IMG/VR virus record: IMGVR_UViG_2718218304_000001
Location: 50,160-114,159 of that record
Strand: one strand, 5' to 3'
Source: a virus
Taxonomy: Duplodnaviria; Heunggongvirae; Uroviricota; Caudoviricetes
Length of the DNA stretch: 64,000 bases
Numbering within the stretch: the first letter of the stretch is position 1; each line of letters begins with the position of its first letter. Below, in pieces: positions 55,189-57,369 of this stretch. The notes below the pieces were generated by a model. It was not told where the DNA came from, did no database searches, and was given only the letters and a program-made list of their open reading frames with translations. A program made the position numbers and the translations under genes.

Positions 55189-55226
55189 ATGCATTGGCGC
55201 AATGTACGCGCCAATGCATGATTTTT
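55189..55226. terminator. bidirectional terminator hairpin between convergent genes
   Basis: ATGCATTGGCGC-aatgtac-GCGCCAATGCAT followed by GATTTTT. Confidence 0.55.
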
Positions 55227-55584
55227 AACCTTTCTTCATCAACTCTCGTTTGATTTCATCGGTACGCATCGTGACATCGGCAGCGGTGATCGCCTCATTC
55301 AATTTCACGATGTCCTCGATTTCCTGCGGTGACTTCTCTGCCAGATGGAAAATGGCTGCTCGAATCACGTCAGAACGAGTGAACTTCTCGAAGCGAGGGA
55401 TGAACTTCATCATCTCCAGCAGTTCGAAGTATTCGTCCTCCAGTGACATTGTGCGGCTTTTAATTTTCTCTTTGCCACGAGTCGGGCGTCCCTGTGGTCT
55501 GACTGGTTGGCGCAAAGGAGTTGTGTTCTTAGCCGGTGCATCAGGCTCTTTGCGCTTTGCTAGGTCACCCATTTTCATGGACAT
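55225..55584 (-). CDS. putative partition centromere-binding protein (ParG/ParB-like partner of ParA)
   Basis: 119-aa basic N-terminus plus helical C-terminus, translationally coupled to parA; assignment by size and context. Confidence 0.45.
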   Translation of the reverse strand: MSMKMGDLAKRKEPDAPAKNTTPLRQPVRPQGRPTRGKEKIKSRTMSLEDEYFELLEMMKFIPRFEKFTRSDVIRAAIFHLAEKSPQEIEDIVKLNEAITAADVTMRTDEIKRELMKKG

Positions 55585-56252
55585 TATTCTTCTTCCTCCA
55601 GACTCAACAGATAATCTACAAATTCTTCAAACTCGGCTTCCGCCTTTTTGTCGCGCTCGCTACCGGTCATTTCAAAGATAGAACGACCAGACTCTTCCGC
55701 ATCATCATAGACGTTGCGGTTATACAGATTGACTGGCGCAGACTCGATTCCAAACGTCTCAACAATCTCTTTAGCCGCCAGAATGCGAGACACTTGTGAT
55801 GGCAAAGCCGGGCACTGGTTCATGACCGCGCGGACCTTCACTTTATCGTTTACATTGCGAACATTGTCGATAATAGGATCGATGTCACGTAAAGATTTCA
55901 AATCACGACGCTTAGGACGCAGCGGGATAATGATAACGTCAGCCATCAGCATCGCTTGTCGCTGAATTTCGGAGTCGAAGCCACCAGCATCTACCACTAC
56001 AAACTCAGCTCTACCCTGAAGCGATTTTAGGTGCTTAATGATGTCATCCTGAACGTATGCAAAAGGAATCAGCTCAAGGTCTTCGTTCTGTCGACGGTCT
56101 TCACACCAGCTCGTTGTCGTGCGCTGAATATCTATATCGGTAATATAAACCTTCTTCTTCTTTTTGACTTTCAGGCAAACGGCAATTTGCTGGGCAACGG
56201 TGGATTTGCCAGGCCCGCCCTTTGTGCCGCCAACCACAAAGATCTTGGTCAT
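55584..56252 (-). CDS. parA: ParA/ParF-type partition ATPase (small, type Ib)
   Basis: Deviant Walker A GGTKGGPGKST; Walker B FVVVDAGG; 222 aa. Confidence 0.85.
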   Translation of the reverse strand: MTKIFVVGGTKGGPGKSTVAQQIAVCLKVKKKKKVYITDIDIQRTTTSWCEDRRQNEDLELIPFAYVQDDIIKHLKSLQGRAEFVVVDAGGFDSEIQRQAMLMADVIIIPLRPKRRDLKSLRDIDPIIDNVRNVNDKVKVRAVMNQCPALPSQVSRILAAKEIVETFGIESAPVNLYNRNVYDDAEESGRSIFEMTGSERDKKAEAEFEEFVDYLLSLEEEE

Positions 56253-56534
56253 TGGAGAGTTCCCTTTGCGTATATAATTATCGTCTGAAACAACTTGTTT
56301 TCTTATATGTGATATAGCCTAAATGCCTACGGCTGCGGTGTAAAGGTTAAATGGTAGGTTGTGATTAACAATTGGCAATCATAGCTTGTATTTGTCTGTT
56401 GAAAAAAGTAACAATGACCTCTATATTACAAGTACGGTGATATGCCGTACACAATTTGATAATGCACACGTAATGGGCTATAGCCTTTTAAAGTAATTTT
56501 TGAGTCGAAAACTCAGTTTGAACAGAGGAGATTG

Positions 56535-56840
56535 ATGGCCTTCCTACATCACGGCCATCAGGAGGAATACATGTCAGCACTAAAAAAGCAGCGCATCGAT
56601 TTGAGATTAACCGATGACGATAAAAGCATCATCGAGGAAGCTGCCGCAATGTCTAACCAGAGCATTACTCAGTTTATGGTTAGCAGTGCATCTGAACGTG
56701 CCGTGAAAGTTATAGAGCAACACCGTAGACTAGTTCTGAATGAAGAATCCTGGAATCTGGTTATGGACGCTATAAGCAATCCTCCGGCACCGAACGACAA
56801 GCTGAAACGAGCTGCTGATCGTCTGAAAAGCATGGAGTAG
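56535..56840 (+). CDS. RHH antitoxin (TacA/DUF1778-like) of a GNAT toxin pair
   Basis: Basic RHH N-region (KKQRIDLRLTDDDKSIIEEAA) then toxin-neutralising C-terminus; starts possible at 56535 or 56571 (both have an SD); toxin gene 8 nt downstream. Confidence 0.75.
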   Translation: MAFLHHGHQEEYMSALKKQRIDLRLTDDDKSIIEEAAAMSNQSITQFMVSSASERAVKVIEQHRRLVLNEESWNLVMDAISNPPAPNDKLKRAADRLKSME

Positions 56841-56847
56841 TTTACTC

Positions 56848-57369
56848 GTGAGCAATACAACGATAGAGATTTTCTCTGGAGAGAAAGATTATGATCTAAA
56901 CGGTTTTGATTGCGGCGAAGAGTCACTAAACGCCTTTTTAGCCAACCACTTAAAAAGGCAGCATGAGGGAAAAATTCTTCGTGCTTATGTGCTTTGCACT
57001 CAAGAAGAAAGGCCAAAAGTGTTAGGATATTACACTTTGTCAGGTAGTTGTTTTGAAAAGGAGTCCTTACCTTCAAGAAGCAAACAAAAGAAGGTTCCTT
57101 ATCGGAATGTTCCAAGTGTTACTTTGGGTAGGCTGGCTTTGGACAAGTCCCTTCAAGGTCAAGGATTTGGCTCAATGCTTGTAACACATGCAATGCGCGT
57201 TGTGTACAATGCATCTCTTGCTGTAGGCATTCATGGACTTTTCGTTGAGGCGTTAAATGACAAAGCCAAGGCGTTTTATAAAAGTTTAGGCTTTATCCAG
57301 CTGGTTGGTAACAACGAGCGTTCTTTGTTCTATCCTACAAAATCTATCGAAAAATTGTTCGAAGAATAA
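56848..57369 (+). CDS. GNAT-family acetyltransferase toxin (TacT/AtaT-like)
   Basis: 173 aa; acetyl-CoA-binding motif GQGFGSMLV; characteristic pairing with the upstream DUF1778-type antitoxin. Confidence 0.8.
   Translation: MSNTTIEIFSGEKDYDLNGFDCGEESLNAFLANHLKRQHEGKILRAYVLCTQEERPKVLGYYTLSGSCFEKESLPSRSKQKKVPYRNVPSVTLGRLALDKSLQGQGFGSMLVTHAMRVVYNASLAVGIHGLFVEALNDKAKAFYKSLGFIQLVGNNERSLFYPTKSIEKLFEE

What the first reader, a model, noticed from the sequence alone, without database searches (positions are those of the whole stretch)
55225..57369. Adjacent plasmid-stability modules: ParA-type partition pair and RHH-GNAT (TacAT-like) toxin-antitoxin pair
A deviant Walker-A ParA with a small partner indicates a type Ib partition system; the centromere is not obvious, with the AAACAAcTTGTTT palindrome upstream of parA as a candidate. 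Immediately downstream lies a DUF1778-like antitoxin and GNAT toxin. With phd/doc this gives two TA systems in the window.
Basis: partly seen in the sequence, partly recalled or inferred. Interest (0 to 1): 0.4.

Follow-up and report, generated by a model that had tools for sequence, protein, structure and literature searches.

The report
Phage-plasmid partition genes plus toxin-antitoxin cargo
This stretch of an E. coli SSU5-type phage-plasmid carries an ordinary small ParA partition ATPase with an uncharacterised small partner and, beside it, a well-known acetyltransferase toxin-antitoxin pair; the palindrome proposed as the centromere is one copy of a promoter element repeated all over the element's genome.

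Summary
The window is an E. coli SSU5-like phage-plasmid, 99.9% identical to phage CMS-2020a and to many ~110-kb plasmids.

- **Partition pair.** parA (55584-56252, minus strand) is a 222-aa deviant-Walker-A ATPase. Its closest solved relative is ParF of TP228. The overlapping 119-aa gene (55225-55584) belongs to a tiny unannotated family (phrog_5111). That family always sits directly after such a ParA and is probably ribbon-helix-helix.
- **Toxin-antitoxin pair.** It runs from 56571 to 57369 and is an AtaRT/KacAT orthologue. The toxin is 70% identical to AtaT and the antitoxin 81% to KacA. Catalytic residues are intact, and the operator has the same GTACGG-N7-CCGTAC arms as the crystallised KacAT operator.
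- **Cargo status.** The pair is Escherichia-lineage cargo in a variable slot, not backbone.
- **phd/doc** is confirmed at 49986-50590.
- **The palindrome.** AAACAAnTTGTTT is not specific to par. It occurs 5 times in the window and 20 times in SSU5, always just after a -10 box upstream of genes. It is best read as a genome-wide operator.
- **The centromere is unidentified.** The best candidate is the 70-nt block upstream of parA. It is 69/70 identical across genera, whereas parA third codon positions are about 50% identical.

The modules are ordinary. The open points are the partner's DNA site and which protein binds the palindrome.

The parts
55225..55584 (-). parB-like partner gene, 119 aa, family phrog_5111. 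It has a conserved N-terminal MGDLAK motif, a basic RPQGRPTRGK tract and a putative ribbon-helix-helix core at residues ~41-84.
   Evidence: ORF. phrog_5111 'unknown function', E=4.5e-80. No Pfam or PDB hit. Only 18 representatives among 1.8e9 proteins. Every distant homologue lies directly after a 221-229 aa ParA/MipZ ATPase. Weak ribbon-helix-helix hits.
55584..56252 (-). parA, a 222-aa deviant Walker-A partition ATPase. Motifs: K11/K16 in KGGPGKST, D39xD41, D88.
   Evidence: The alignment to ParF of TP228 (4dzz) covers residues 9-199.
56287..56359 (-). Invariant block upstream of parA. It holds the -35 TTTACA (56339-56344), a 17-nt spacer, the -10 TAGGCT (56316-56321), the palindrome and about 15 nt further upstream. 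It is the best candidate for the par operator/centromere region.
   Evidence: 69/70 identical to SSU5 and pJN2-26, versus 111/221 parA third positions. Present in 594 plasmids, 558 of them at >=95%. Promoter geometry conserved in six lineages. Alignment.
56288..56300 (.). It is one copy of the genome-wide element.
53356..53368 (.). Second copy of the palindrome (AAACAATTTGTTT), upstream of the DnaB-like helicase gene.
   Evidence: The orthologous site is present in SSU5, L013, L017 and L018.
20988..21000 (.). Palindrome copy upstream of the DUF7238 gene (20546-20971, minus strand).
9550..9562 (.). Palindrome copy with 1 mismatch, upstream of the gene at 8376-9518 (minus strand). Its SSU5 counterpart, which carries the orthologous site, is annotated as the ribonucleotide reductase small subunit.
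35339..35351 (.). Weaker palindrome copy (AAACAAATTATTT) upstream of the CobT-like gene.
56399..56427 (+). Promoter-like site for the toxin-antitoxin operon: TTGAAA, 17 nt, TATATT (10 of 12 matches).
56432..56450 (.). Inverted repeat GTACGG-TGATATG-CCGTAC, the predicted antitoxin operator spanning the predicted transcription start.
   Evidence: Sequence. The arms and 7-nt spacing are the same as in the crystallised KacAT operator AAATGTACGGTTATTAACCGTACATGA (PMC6698736).
56571..56840 (+). ataR/kacA-like antitoxin, 89 aa, DUF1778/TacA1. The DNA-reading residues R8, D10 and R12 are conserved.
   Evidence: 81% identical to KacA.
56848..57369 (+). GNAT toxin of AtaT/KacT type, 173 aa. G108 and Y144 are conserved.
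   Evidence: 69.8% identical to AtaT.
55189..55219 (.). Perfect 12-bp inverted repeat with a 7-nt loop, lying between the convergent PD-T4-3 gene and parB. It is followed by TTTTT on the plus strand and is a probable terminator.
   Evidence: (I9) and sequence. The terminator scan did not list it.

Best explanation
The region holds two independent maintenance modules of an E. coli SSU5-like phage-plasmid.

**1. Backbone parAB operon (55225-56359).**
- It is transcribed leftward, probably from TTTACA-N17-TAGGCT.
- A ParF-like deviant Walker-A ATPase is translationally coupled to a 119-aa partner.
- Inferred: the partner is a dimeric ribbon-helix-helix DNA binder. Its flexible, basic N-terminus, with the conserved MGDLAK and RPQGRPTRGK motifs, would stimulate the ParA ATPase as ParG does for ParF.
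- Inferred: ParA-ATP on the nucleoid then positions the roughly 5-copy plasmid prophage.
- The partner's DNA site is not identified. The most likely location is the 70-nt invariant block directly upstream of parA.

**2. Cargo cassette (about 56360-57400).**
- It carries its own promoter and a KacA-type operator.
- It encodes an AtaR/KacA antitoxin and an AtaT/KacT GNAT toxin.
- By homology the toxin acetylates aminoacyl-tRNAs. The toxin-antitoxin complex would neutralise it and repress its transcription. The result would be post-segregational killing or stress arrest.

**3. The 13-bp palindrome in the parA leader.**
- It is one copy of a genome-wide operator.
- It sits 13-15 nt downstream of the -10 box of about 20 promoters in these elements.
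- It most likely belongs to a global regulator of the phage-plasmid that is not ParB. This would tie parAB expression into that regulon.
For: **Identity of the element**
- 99.9% identity to CMS-2020a and plasmids, with synteny to Cyrano, SSU5 and PhiR41_1.

**ParA**
-.

**Partner**
- The ParA-partner gene pair is conserved in every distant lineage found.
- The stop and start codons overlap as TAATG.
- Weak ribbon-helix-helix hits fall on exactly the predicted strand-helix-helix segment. These are PF01402 at E=0.005 and 0.11 in two homologues and the aCcr1 family at E=2e-4 for the window protein.
- The AF2 model of residues 38-119 has pLDDT 82, with helices where helices A and B are expected.

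**Expression**
- In the near-identical Cyrano lysogen, ParA reads 49.8 and ParB 89.1. Neighbouring backbone genes read 6-21. Copy number is 5.5.

**Invariant block**
-.

**Toxin-antitoxin pair**
- Searches give the homology. Searches list the functional residues, which are conserved here.
- The operator has the same GTACGG/CCGTAC arms and 7-nt spacing as the KacAT operator.
- It is among the most highly expressed genes of the prophage listed for the Cyrano lysogen, at 344 and 592.
- Its cargo status follows.

**Palindrome as a regulon element**
-.
Against: - No sequence or fold search reaches significance for a ribbon-helix-helix fold in the partner.
- No array of short repeats of the kind that forms type Ib centromeres was found upstream of parA, downstream of parB or elsewhere in the window.
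- The invariant block is absent from lineages whose partner is about 50% identical (L017, L018). Only the promoter and palindrome are shared there. The block could therefore be lineage-specific.
- The protein that binds the palindrome is unknown, and ParB itself is not excluded.
- No functional assay for partition or for toxicity of this particular allele was found in the papers searched.
Confidence: 0.75

Rival explanations
1. The small partner is itself the protein that binds AAACAAnTTGTTT. It would then be a global repressor and the centromere-binding protein at once. The ~20 promoter-proximal palindromes would together form a dispersed centromere. Precedents, from my own knowledge, are KorB with its 13-bp OB sites on RK2, omega on pSM19035, and the scattered SopB sites of phage-plasmid N15.
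For: - The palindrome is the only upstream element shared by all parA promoters in lineages whose partners range from 100% to 26-30% identity: window, SSU5, pJN2-26, L017, L018 and L013.
- The putative DNA-reading strand KSRTMS is nearly invariant across the family.
- A short palindrome read in one major groove suits a ribbon-helix-helix dimer (inference).
- The CI-like repressor region carries different palindromes, GGTAAG..CTTACC. The AAACAA element therefore needs another binder.
Against: - The three most distant ParA-partner loci (L011, L012, L016) have no such palindrome upstream of parA, although the strand residues are kept.
- pMT1 lacks this parAB but keeps six sites at orthologous promoters. 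pMT1 is a recent derivative, so this is weak evidence.
- The fixed position 13-15 nt after the -10 box points first to transcription control.
- parAB is expressed 2-8 times higher than other genes served by the motif.
Confidence: 0.13
2. The toxin-antitoxin cassette is primarily an anti-phage or competition cargo gene (abortive infection) rather than a plasmid-stability module. This would fit the defence genes that occupy the neighbouring variable slot.
For: - The slot on the other side of parAB holds PD-T4-3 in this window. It holds DUF2971/PDC-S31 in Cyrano and SSU5. In L011 it holds Abi_2, and ApeA-HEPN lies upstream of parA there.
- The cassette is variable cargo present in only about 19% of par-bearing plasmids.
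- It is strongly expressed in lysogeny.
Against: - The toxin and antitoxin match no PADLOC model.
- The closest characterised homologues are described as growth-arrest and persistence toxins with autoregulation.
- The two roles are not mutually exclusive.
Confidence: 0.25
3. The 119-aa ORF is a RelE/ParE-type toxin, as annotated in phage Cyrano (CYRAN_29). ParA would then have no dedicated partner here.
For: Only the Cyrano record's annotation.
Against: - No RelE/ParE or any other toxin family matches it in Pfam, NCBIfam, PADLOC or the PDB.
- It has a long disordered basic N-terminus and a helical core.
- It is strictly linked to, and translationally coupled with, ParA in all lineages.
Confidence: 0.02
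4. The ParA pair does not segregate the plasmid but serves another positioning or regulatory role, such as MipZ-like interference with host division or control of the lysis-lysogeny state.
For: The best Pfam hit is MipZ, and some records name the protein MipZ. No centromere was found.
Against: - There is a full-length match to the ParA partition family NF041546 and to ParF.
- The element is a ~110-kb replicon at about 5 copies per cell that needs active partition, and no other par locus is seen in the window.
- pMT1, which lacks this pair, carries a different ParA/ParB pair instead.
Confidence: 0.06

Closest known systems
ParF-ParG-parH of plasmid TP228 (type Ib partition)
   Same: ParA is small and has a deviant Walker A with no N-terminal DNA-binding domain. 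ParF is the best solved relative (E=1e-10, residues 9-199). The small downstream partner has a disordered basic N-terminus and a putative ribbon-helix-helix core. The regulatory region lies upstream of parA.
   Different: The partner has no detectable sequence homology to ParG. It is longer (119 aa) and has two extra C-terminal helices. No array of tetramer boxes like parH was found. The ParA match to NF041546 is below the curated cut-off (115.7 versus 180 bits).
AtaR-AtaT (E. coli O157:H7) and KacA-KacT (K. pneumoniae) GNAT/RHH type II toxin-antitoxin systems
   Same: The toxin is 69.8% identical to AtaT without gaps, and the antitoxin 81% to KacA. G108, Y144, Y85, R95, L27, F30, H34 and R37 are conserved, as are KacA R8, D10 and R12. 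Gene order is the same, with a 7-nt gap. The operator arms GTACGG/CCGTAC and their 7-nt spacer match the KacAT operator.
   Different: This is a distinct allele on a phage-plasmid rather than a chromosome. It has R40E, R71K and K77R in the tRNA-binding surface, so tRNA preference may differ. The predicted leader is about 135 nt long.
TacA-TacT of Salmonella
   Same: Same Pfam antitoxin family (PF08681) and GNAT toxin fold.
   Different: A much more distant relative than AtaT/KacT. The other GNAT toxin structures in the PDB list score E~1e-11 to 1e-22, versus 1e-79 for AtaT. 'TacAT-like' is correct at family level, but AtaRT/KacAT is the precise subgroup.
Global ParB-type regulators with dispersed sites: KorB/IncC of RK2, omega/delta of pSM19035, SopAB of phage-plasmid N15 (from my own knowledge, not tested here)
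   Same: A short palindrome (13 bp here) recurs at many promoters of a low-copy element that also encodes a ParA and a small DNA-binding partner.
   Different: Nothing here shows that the partner binds the palindrome. The motif persists in pMT1 without this partner and is missing at parA in three distant lineages.
Phd-Doc of phage-plasmid P1
   Same: The Phd/YefM antitoxin and Fic/Doc toxin genes overlap by one base at 49986-50590, on a phage-plasmid.
   Different: The host element is SSU5-type rather than P1-type. The pair lies next to an IS3-family transposase and a fimbrial operon, in an accessory region.

Membership tests
Type Ib ParABS partition system | Small ParA (about 190-310 aa) with deviant Walker A KGGxxGK[ST] and no N-terminal helix-turn-helix domain | tested here: met
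   222 aa. KGGPGKST lies at residues 11-18, with D39xD41 and D88. It aligns to ParF over residues 9-199 and matches NF041546 at E=2e-33, full length.
Type Ib ParABS partition system | Small centromere-binding partner encoded directly downstream, with a ribbon-helix-helix fold | tested here: inconclusive
Type Ib ParABS partition system | Cis-acting centromere of repeated short sites next to the operon, usually upstream of parA, that also acts as operator | tested here: inconclusive
   No repeat array was found. A 70-nt block under strong constraint lies upstream of parA. The only clear palindrome is a genome-wide element.
Type Ib ParABS partition system | Stabilises a low-copy replicon; ParA ATPase is stimulated by the partner | not testable with these tools
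   No functional assay was found in the papers searched.
GNAT/DUF1778 (TacAT, AtaRT, KacAT) type II toxin-antitoxin | DUF1778/TacA1 antitoxin with an N-terminal ribbon-helix-helix and a C-terminal toxin-binding region, encoded just upstream of the toxin | tested here: met
   PF08681 at E=5e-26, covering 79 of 80 profile positions. KacA at E=2e-41. The gap to the toxin gene is 7 nt.
GNAT/DUF1778 (TacAT, AtaRT, KacAT) type II toxin-antitoxin | GNAT toxin with the acetyl-CoA glycine and catalytic tyrosine (AtaT G108, Y144) | tested here: met
   The gapless alignment to AtaT shows G108 and Y144 conserved. The residue roles come from PMC7595197.
GNAT/DUF1778 (TacAT, AtaRT, KacAT) type II toxin-antitoxin | Palindromic operator at the promoter, bound by the antitoxin-toxin complex | tested here: met
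   GTACGG-N7-CCGTAC at 56432-56450 begins 5 nt after a 10/12 promoter's -10 box. The arms and spacing are the same as in the KacAT crystal operator. Binding itself was not tested.
GNAT/DUF1778 (TacAT, AtaRT, KacAT) type II toxin-antitoxin | Toxicity through acetylation of aminoacyl-tRNA, neutralised by the antitoxin | not testable with these tools
   Inferred from 70% identity to AtaT only.
Phd/Doc type II toxin-antitoxin | Phd/YefM antitoxin followed by a Fic-fold Doc toxin | tested here: met
   PF02604 at E=7e-13 and PF02661 at E=5e-9, above the gathering scores. The genes overlap by one base.
RelE/ParE toxin (Cyrano annotation of the 119-aa ORF) | RelE/ParE fold or family match | tested here: not met
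   No match in Pfam, NCBIfam, PADLOC or the PDB.

The most novel reading that the evidence does not exclude
The uncharacterised 119-aa partner (phrog_5111) could be a KorB/omega-like dual-function protein. It would bind the AAACAAnTTGTTT palindrome at about 20 promoters of SSU5-type phage-plasmids. Those sites would then serve together as a dispersed centromere for the ParF-like ATPase and as operators holding replication and early lytic genes at low level during plasmid lysogeny. Segregation and the lysis-lysogeny state would be coupled through one protein.
Probability: 0.12. Interest if true: 0.7.

Novelty: new member of a known kind. Interest (0 to 1): 0.28.

Why it matters
SSU5-type phage-plasmids are common in clinical E. 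coli, Shigella, Salmonella Typhi and Klebsiella, and some carry resistance genes (papers read). Their maintenance functions decide how stably they persist.

The work shows that the par ATPase and the toxin-antitoxin pair are ordinary and already annotated in relatives. It also clarifies four practical points.
1. The ParA partner is mis-annotated or unannotated in public records ('RelE/ParE toxin', 'hypothetical'). It is a narrow, uncharacterised family.
2. The toxin-antitoxin pair is exchangeable cargo in a slot that flanks par. The slot on the other side holds defence genes.
3. The obvious palindrome is a genome-wide regulatory element and should not be taken as the centromere without a test.
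4. The 70-nt invariant block is where to look for the centromere.

None of this changes a general concept unless the rival 'ParB as global regulator' proves true.

Tried and rejected
1. **Homology of the partner to known proteins.**
   - phmmer and a profile against the PDB and Pfam on 12 members found nothing.
Only CopG aligned in the expected register, at 3% probability.
3. **Centromere as a repeat array.** The repeat finder, TRF and k-mer sharing among six upstream regions found none. The 8-bp-spaced NACC boxes and the two TAGGC copies that I saw by eye in the invariant block are too few to claim.
4. **Second copies of the unique halves of the block in the window.** None were found.
5. **An RNA in the conserved block.** There was no Rfam match.
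6. **pMT1 as a natural 'no ParB' control for the palindrome.**
   - Its sites are retained.
   - pMT1 is too recent a derivative for this to prove independence.
7. **The CI-like repressor (35882-36268) as binder of the palindrome.** Its own divergent promoter region carries different palindromes, GGTAAG..CTTACC. It is not favoured but not excluded.
8. **The alternative parA promoter listed by the scan (TTGCCA-16-TACCAT).** Rejected as the conserved promoter because its -35 box lies in cargo DNA that differs in SSU5 and pJN2-26.
9. **Literature.** No paper on the SSU5 par mechanism or on the palindrome was found.
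Full report
**What the window is.** The 3.5 kb around the finding is 99.9% identical to Escherichia phage CMS-2020a and to about 95 E. coli and E. albertii plasmids of roughly 110 kb. It is 99% identical to phage Cyrano (pLF82) over the par and toxin-antitoxin part. Only the par part matches Salmonella phage SSU5 (87%) and the Klebsiella phage-plasmids (about 80%). Gene order is the same as in SSU5: tail fibre, holin/endolysin/Rz, a variable slot, parA, a small ORF, a second variable slot, a hypothetical gene, DnaB-like helicase and primase. The window is therefore an E. coli member of the SSU5 phage-plasmid supergroup, which is described in PMC7969092.

**Checking the observation.**
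- All four ORFs are present.
- parA (55584-56252, minus strand, 222 aa) begins MTKIFVVGGTKGGPGKST. That is a deviant Walker A right at the N-terminus, so there is no type Ia DNA-binding domain.
- parA matches MipZ/AAA_31/CbiA in Pfam and phrog_164 'ParA-like partition protein' at E=4e-51.
- It matches NCBIfam NF041546 'ParA family partition ATPase' over the whole profile. The E-value is 2e-33, but 115.7 bits is below the 180-bit cut-off.
- Among solved structures the best match is ParF of TP228 (E=1e-10, residues 9-199). The Walker A', Walker B and C-terminal regions align.
- The parA stop and the start of the 119-aa ORF share one base (TAATG at 55584), and a GGAGGA lies 9 nt upstream.
- The antitoxin starts at the ATG at 56571, not at the TTG listed by the ORF tool, with AGGAGG 5 nt upstream. 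The toxin gene follows after 7 nt.
- phd/doc is confirmed at 49986-50590.

**The small partner.**
- It has no Pfam, PDB or PADLOC match and belongs to phrog_5111 'unknown function'.
- The family is tiny. There are 25 clusters in the 5.8-billion-protein set and 18 representatives in the exhaustive HMMER scan of 1.84 billion.
- Four distant members (31-41% identity or less) were traced to their contigs. Each lies immediately after a 221-229 aa MipZ/ParA-type ATPase, usually with the same tail-fibre/lysis ... DnaB synteny. The gene pair is thus the conserved unit.
- The alignment shows four features:
  - an N-terminal G-[DG]-L-x-K motif;
  - a variable acidic and proline-rich linker;
  - a basic tract, RPQGRPTRGK;
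  - a nearly invariant core, I-K-S-R-T-M-S-[LIM]-E-D-E ... F-T-R-S-D-V-I-R-A-A-I.
- That core has the spacing of a ribbon-helix-helix motif: a strand, helix A, then helix B capped by T/S-R-S. This is my reading of the pattern.
- Three independent sub-threshold hits fall exactly on the segment. They are PF01402 RHH_1 in two homologues (E=0.005 and 0.11) and the archaeal ribbon-helix-helix family aCcr1 for the window protein (E=2e-4).
- AF2 places helices at 48-60 and 70-84 plus two more C-terminal helices. The monomer models gave no meaningful fold matches.
- I therefore treat 'ribbon-helix-helix centromere-binding partner' as likely but unproven.
- The Cyrano annotation 'RelE/ParE putative toxin' has no support.

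**The centromere question.**
- Searching the window for it with up to 2 mismatches gave 11 strand-hits against 3.1 expected; none of 100 shuffles reached that.
- The good sites are at 9550, 20988, 35339, 53356 and 56288. All are intergenic and lie just upstream of minus-strand genes.
- In the complete SSU5 genome there are 11 exact copies and 20 with up to 1 mismatch. Simulations give 0.03 and 0.63.
- Oriented by gene direction, 19 of the 25 sites share one architecture. A -10-like box (often TGnGATAAT) is followed after about 13 nt by AGA-AAACAAnTTGTTT-A. A Shine-Dalgarno sequence and the start codon lie 10-30 nt further on.
- Some promoters carry a second copy 51 bp upstream.
- Genes served include parA, the DnaB-like helicase, the CobT-like gene, nrdB, ant, a methyltransferase and many small ORFs.
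- The extended motif occurs in at least 119 stretches of IMG/VR contigs, mostly 50-110 kb long.
- The palindrome is therefore a genome-wide promoter-proximal operator, not a par-specific site.

**Could ParB still be its binder?**

In favour:
- The palindrome is the only upstream element shared among lineages whose partners are 100%, about 50% and 26-30% identical.
- The putative DNA-reading strand is conserved.

Against:
- The three most distant ParA-partner loci lack it upstream of parA.
- pMT1 has a different ParA/ParB pair and no homologue of this one by tblastn, yet keeps six sites at orthologous promoters. pMT1 is a recent derivative, so this counts for little.

I put this rival at about 0.13.

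**What else lies upstream of parA.**
- A promoter geometry TT[TG][AT]CA-N17-TAG[GT][CA]T is conserved in the window, SSU5, pJN2-26, L017, L013 and L011. In the window the -35 is at 56339-56344 and the -10 at 56316-56321. The palindrome starts 15 nt after the -10.
- The whole stretch from -107 to -38 is 69/70 identical between the window and both SSU5 and the Klebsiella element pJN2-26, and 65/70 with Kpn1825.
- By contrast, parA third codon positions are 111/221 identical to pJN2-26, and the 37-nt leader is 23/37.
- The 73-nt block is present in 594 plasmids from eight named genera, 558 of them at 95% identity or more.
- Such invariance over promoter spacers implies dense protein contacts.
- The block occurs in every element examined whose partner is at least 90% identical to the window's. 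In L017 and L018, where the partner is about 50% identical, different sequence replaces it.
- This makes the block the best candidate for the par operator/centromere of this lineage. However, it contains no convincing repeat array, its unique halves are single-copy in the window and it matches no Rfam family.
- In the Cyrano lysogen, parA and the partner are transcribed at 50 and 89 normalised units. Adjacent backbone genes read 6-21. The promoter is therefore active in the plasmid state.

**The toxin-antitoxin module.**
- The toxin aligns without gaps to AtaT of E. coli O157:H7 at 69.8% identity, and scores almost as well against KacT.
- The residues shown experimentally to matter in AtaT are mostly conserved: G108, Y144, Y85, R95, L27, F30, H34, R37, S76, S78, K79, K81 and K82. 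R40E, R71K and K77R differ.
- The antitoxin is 81% identical to KacA and keeps the DNA-reading residues R8, D10 and R12.
- A 10/12 sigma-70-like promoter (56399-56427) is followed 5 nt later by GTACGG-TGATATG-CCGTAC. The oligonucleotide crystallised with KacAT is AAATGTACGGTTATTAACCGTACATGA, with the same arms and spacing.
- Autoregulation by the antitoxin-toxin complex, as shown for KacAT, is therefore the expected mechanism. The toxin is expected to acetylate aminoacyl-tRNAs. AtaT acts on Gly-, Trp-, Tyr-, Phe- and initiator Met-tRNA according to PMC7595197.
- The cassette (about 56360-57400) occurs in 143 plasmid records, 138 of them Escherichia, against 772 with the par block. SSU5, PhiR41_1, pJN2-26 and L018 carry unrelated genes at the same place.
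- In Cyrano it is among the most highly expressed genes listed for the prophage, at 344 and 592 units.
- It is lineage-specific cargo, and its role may be addiction, stress arrest or defence.

**Comparison and verdict.**
- The par pair works like a type Ib system such as ParF-ParG. It meets the ATPase criterion, but the partner-fold and centromere criteria remain inconclusive.
- The toxin-antitoxin pair is a clear member of the AtaRT/KacAT subgroup of the GNAT/DUF1778 family.
- Both modules are already annotated in relatives, although the partner is not or is wrongly annotated.
- I rate the finding as a new member of known kinds, with low-to-moderate interest.
- Three points deserve follow-up: the protein that binds the genome-wide palindrome, the function of the invariant 70-nt block, and the DNA site of the phrog_5111 partner.

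Noticed in passing
window 9550-9562, 20988-21000, 35339-35351, 53356-53368, 56288-56300; SSU5 (L006-L008), 20 sites: A 13-bp palindrome AAACAAnTTGTTT sits 13-15 nt after a -10 box at about 20 promoters of SSU5-type elements. Some promoters have a second copy 51 bp upstream, and intrinsic-terminator-like hairpins often lie directly upstream of these promoters. This is a genome-wide operator family whose binding protein is unknown. I found no description of it in the papers searched.
   Followed up: partly
window 56287-56359: A 70-nt non-coding block upstream of parA is 69/70 identical between E. coli, Salmonella and Klebsiella elements, whereas parA third codon positions are about 50% identical. 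It is present at 95% identity or more in 558 plasmids. It contains TAGGC twice, 8 bp apart, and three NACC boxes at 8-bp spacing, but these are too few to call repeats.
   Followed up: partly
window 54405-55172 (+): The gene convergent with parB matches the PADLOC defence model PD-T4-3 (E=1e-23) and a LEM-3-like GIY-YIG domain. The same slot holds a DUF2971/PDC-S31 gene in Cyrano and SSU5, and Abi_2 in the distant locus L011. The slot after parB therefore looks like a defence-gene hotspot.
   Followed up: partly
L001 3999-4358 (Cyrano CYRAN_29); L002 4999-5289 (SSU5_034): Public annotation of the ParA partner is wrong or truncated. It is 'RelE/ParE putative toxin' in Cyrano, and a 96-aa 'hypothetical protein' with a late start in SSU5.
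   Followed up: yes
window 35631-35881 and 35882-36268 (+), 36263-37366 (-): A 128-aa HTH regulator equals Cyrano's 'putative repressor' CYRAN_45 by size and by its neighbouring 367-aa ORF, which Cyrano annotates as an integrase. It is transcribed divergently from a 70-aa ORF. The intergenic region carries GGTAAG / CTTACC half-sites, including the palindrome GGTAAGCACTTACC at 35839-35852. These are probably its own operators, and they differ from the AAACAA element.
   Followed up: partly
window 43825-49807: An IS3-family transposase (rve, HTH_21) is followed by four plus-strand ORFs of 183, 244, 830 and 346 aa. The first matches the Pfam Fimbrial family. The other three were not scanned, and their sizes and order suggest a chaperone-usher fimbrial operon. 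phd/doc lies directly after it, so this is an accessory island in the phage-plasmid.
   Followed up: no
window 17553-17757 and 17658-18872 (+): Tandem 21/42-bp repeats (TGTCAGCGG core) overlap the start of a Rep3-type initiator gene. This is probably the iteron origin of the plasmid replicon.
   Followed up: no
L007 49817-50000 and L008 1-1284 (SSU5_125, SSU5_126); pMT1 L009 30707-32073: Two 'ParB N-terminal domain' proteins are encoded in the gene cluster that also holds the terminase, in SSU5 and in pMT1. They are unrelated to the par locus studied here, and pMT1 keeps them although it uses another par system. They could mislead annotation of the partition system.
   Followed up: no
L013 4442-4900: In a distant relative (partner P0032) the 460-nt spacer after parB contains long inverted repeats: about 20-bp arms roughly 300 nt apart, plus a shorter inner pair with roughly 10-20-bp arms. 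Their function is unknown and no equivalent exists in the window.
   Followed up: no
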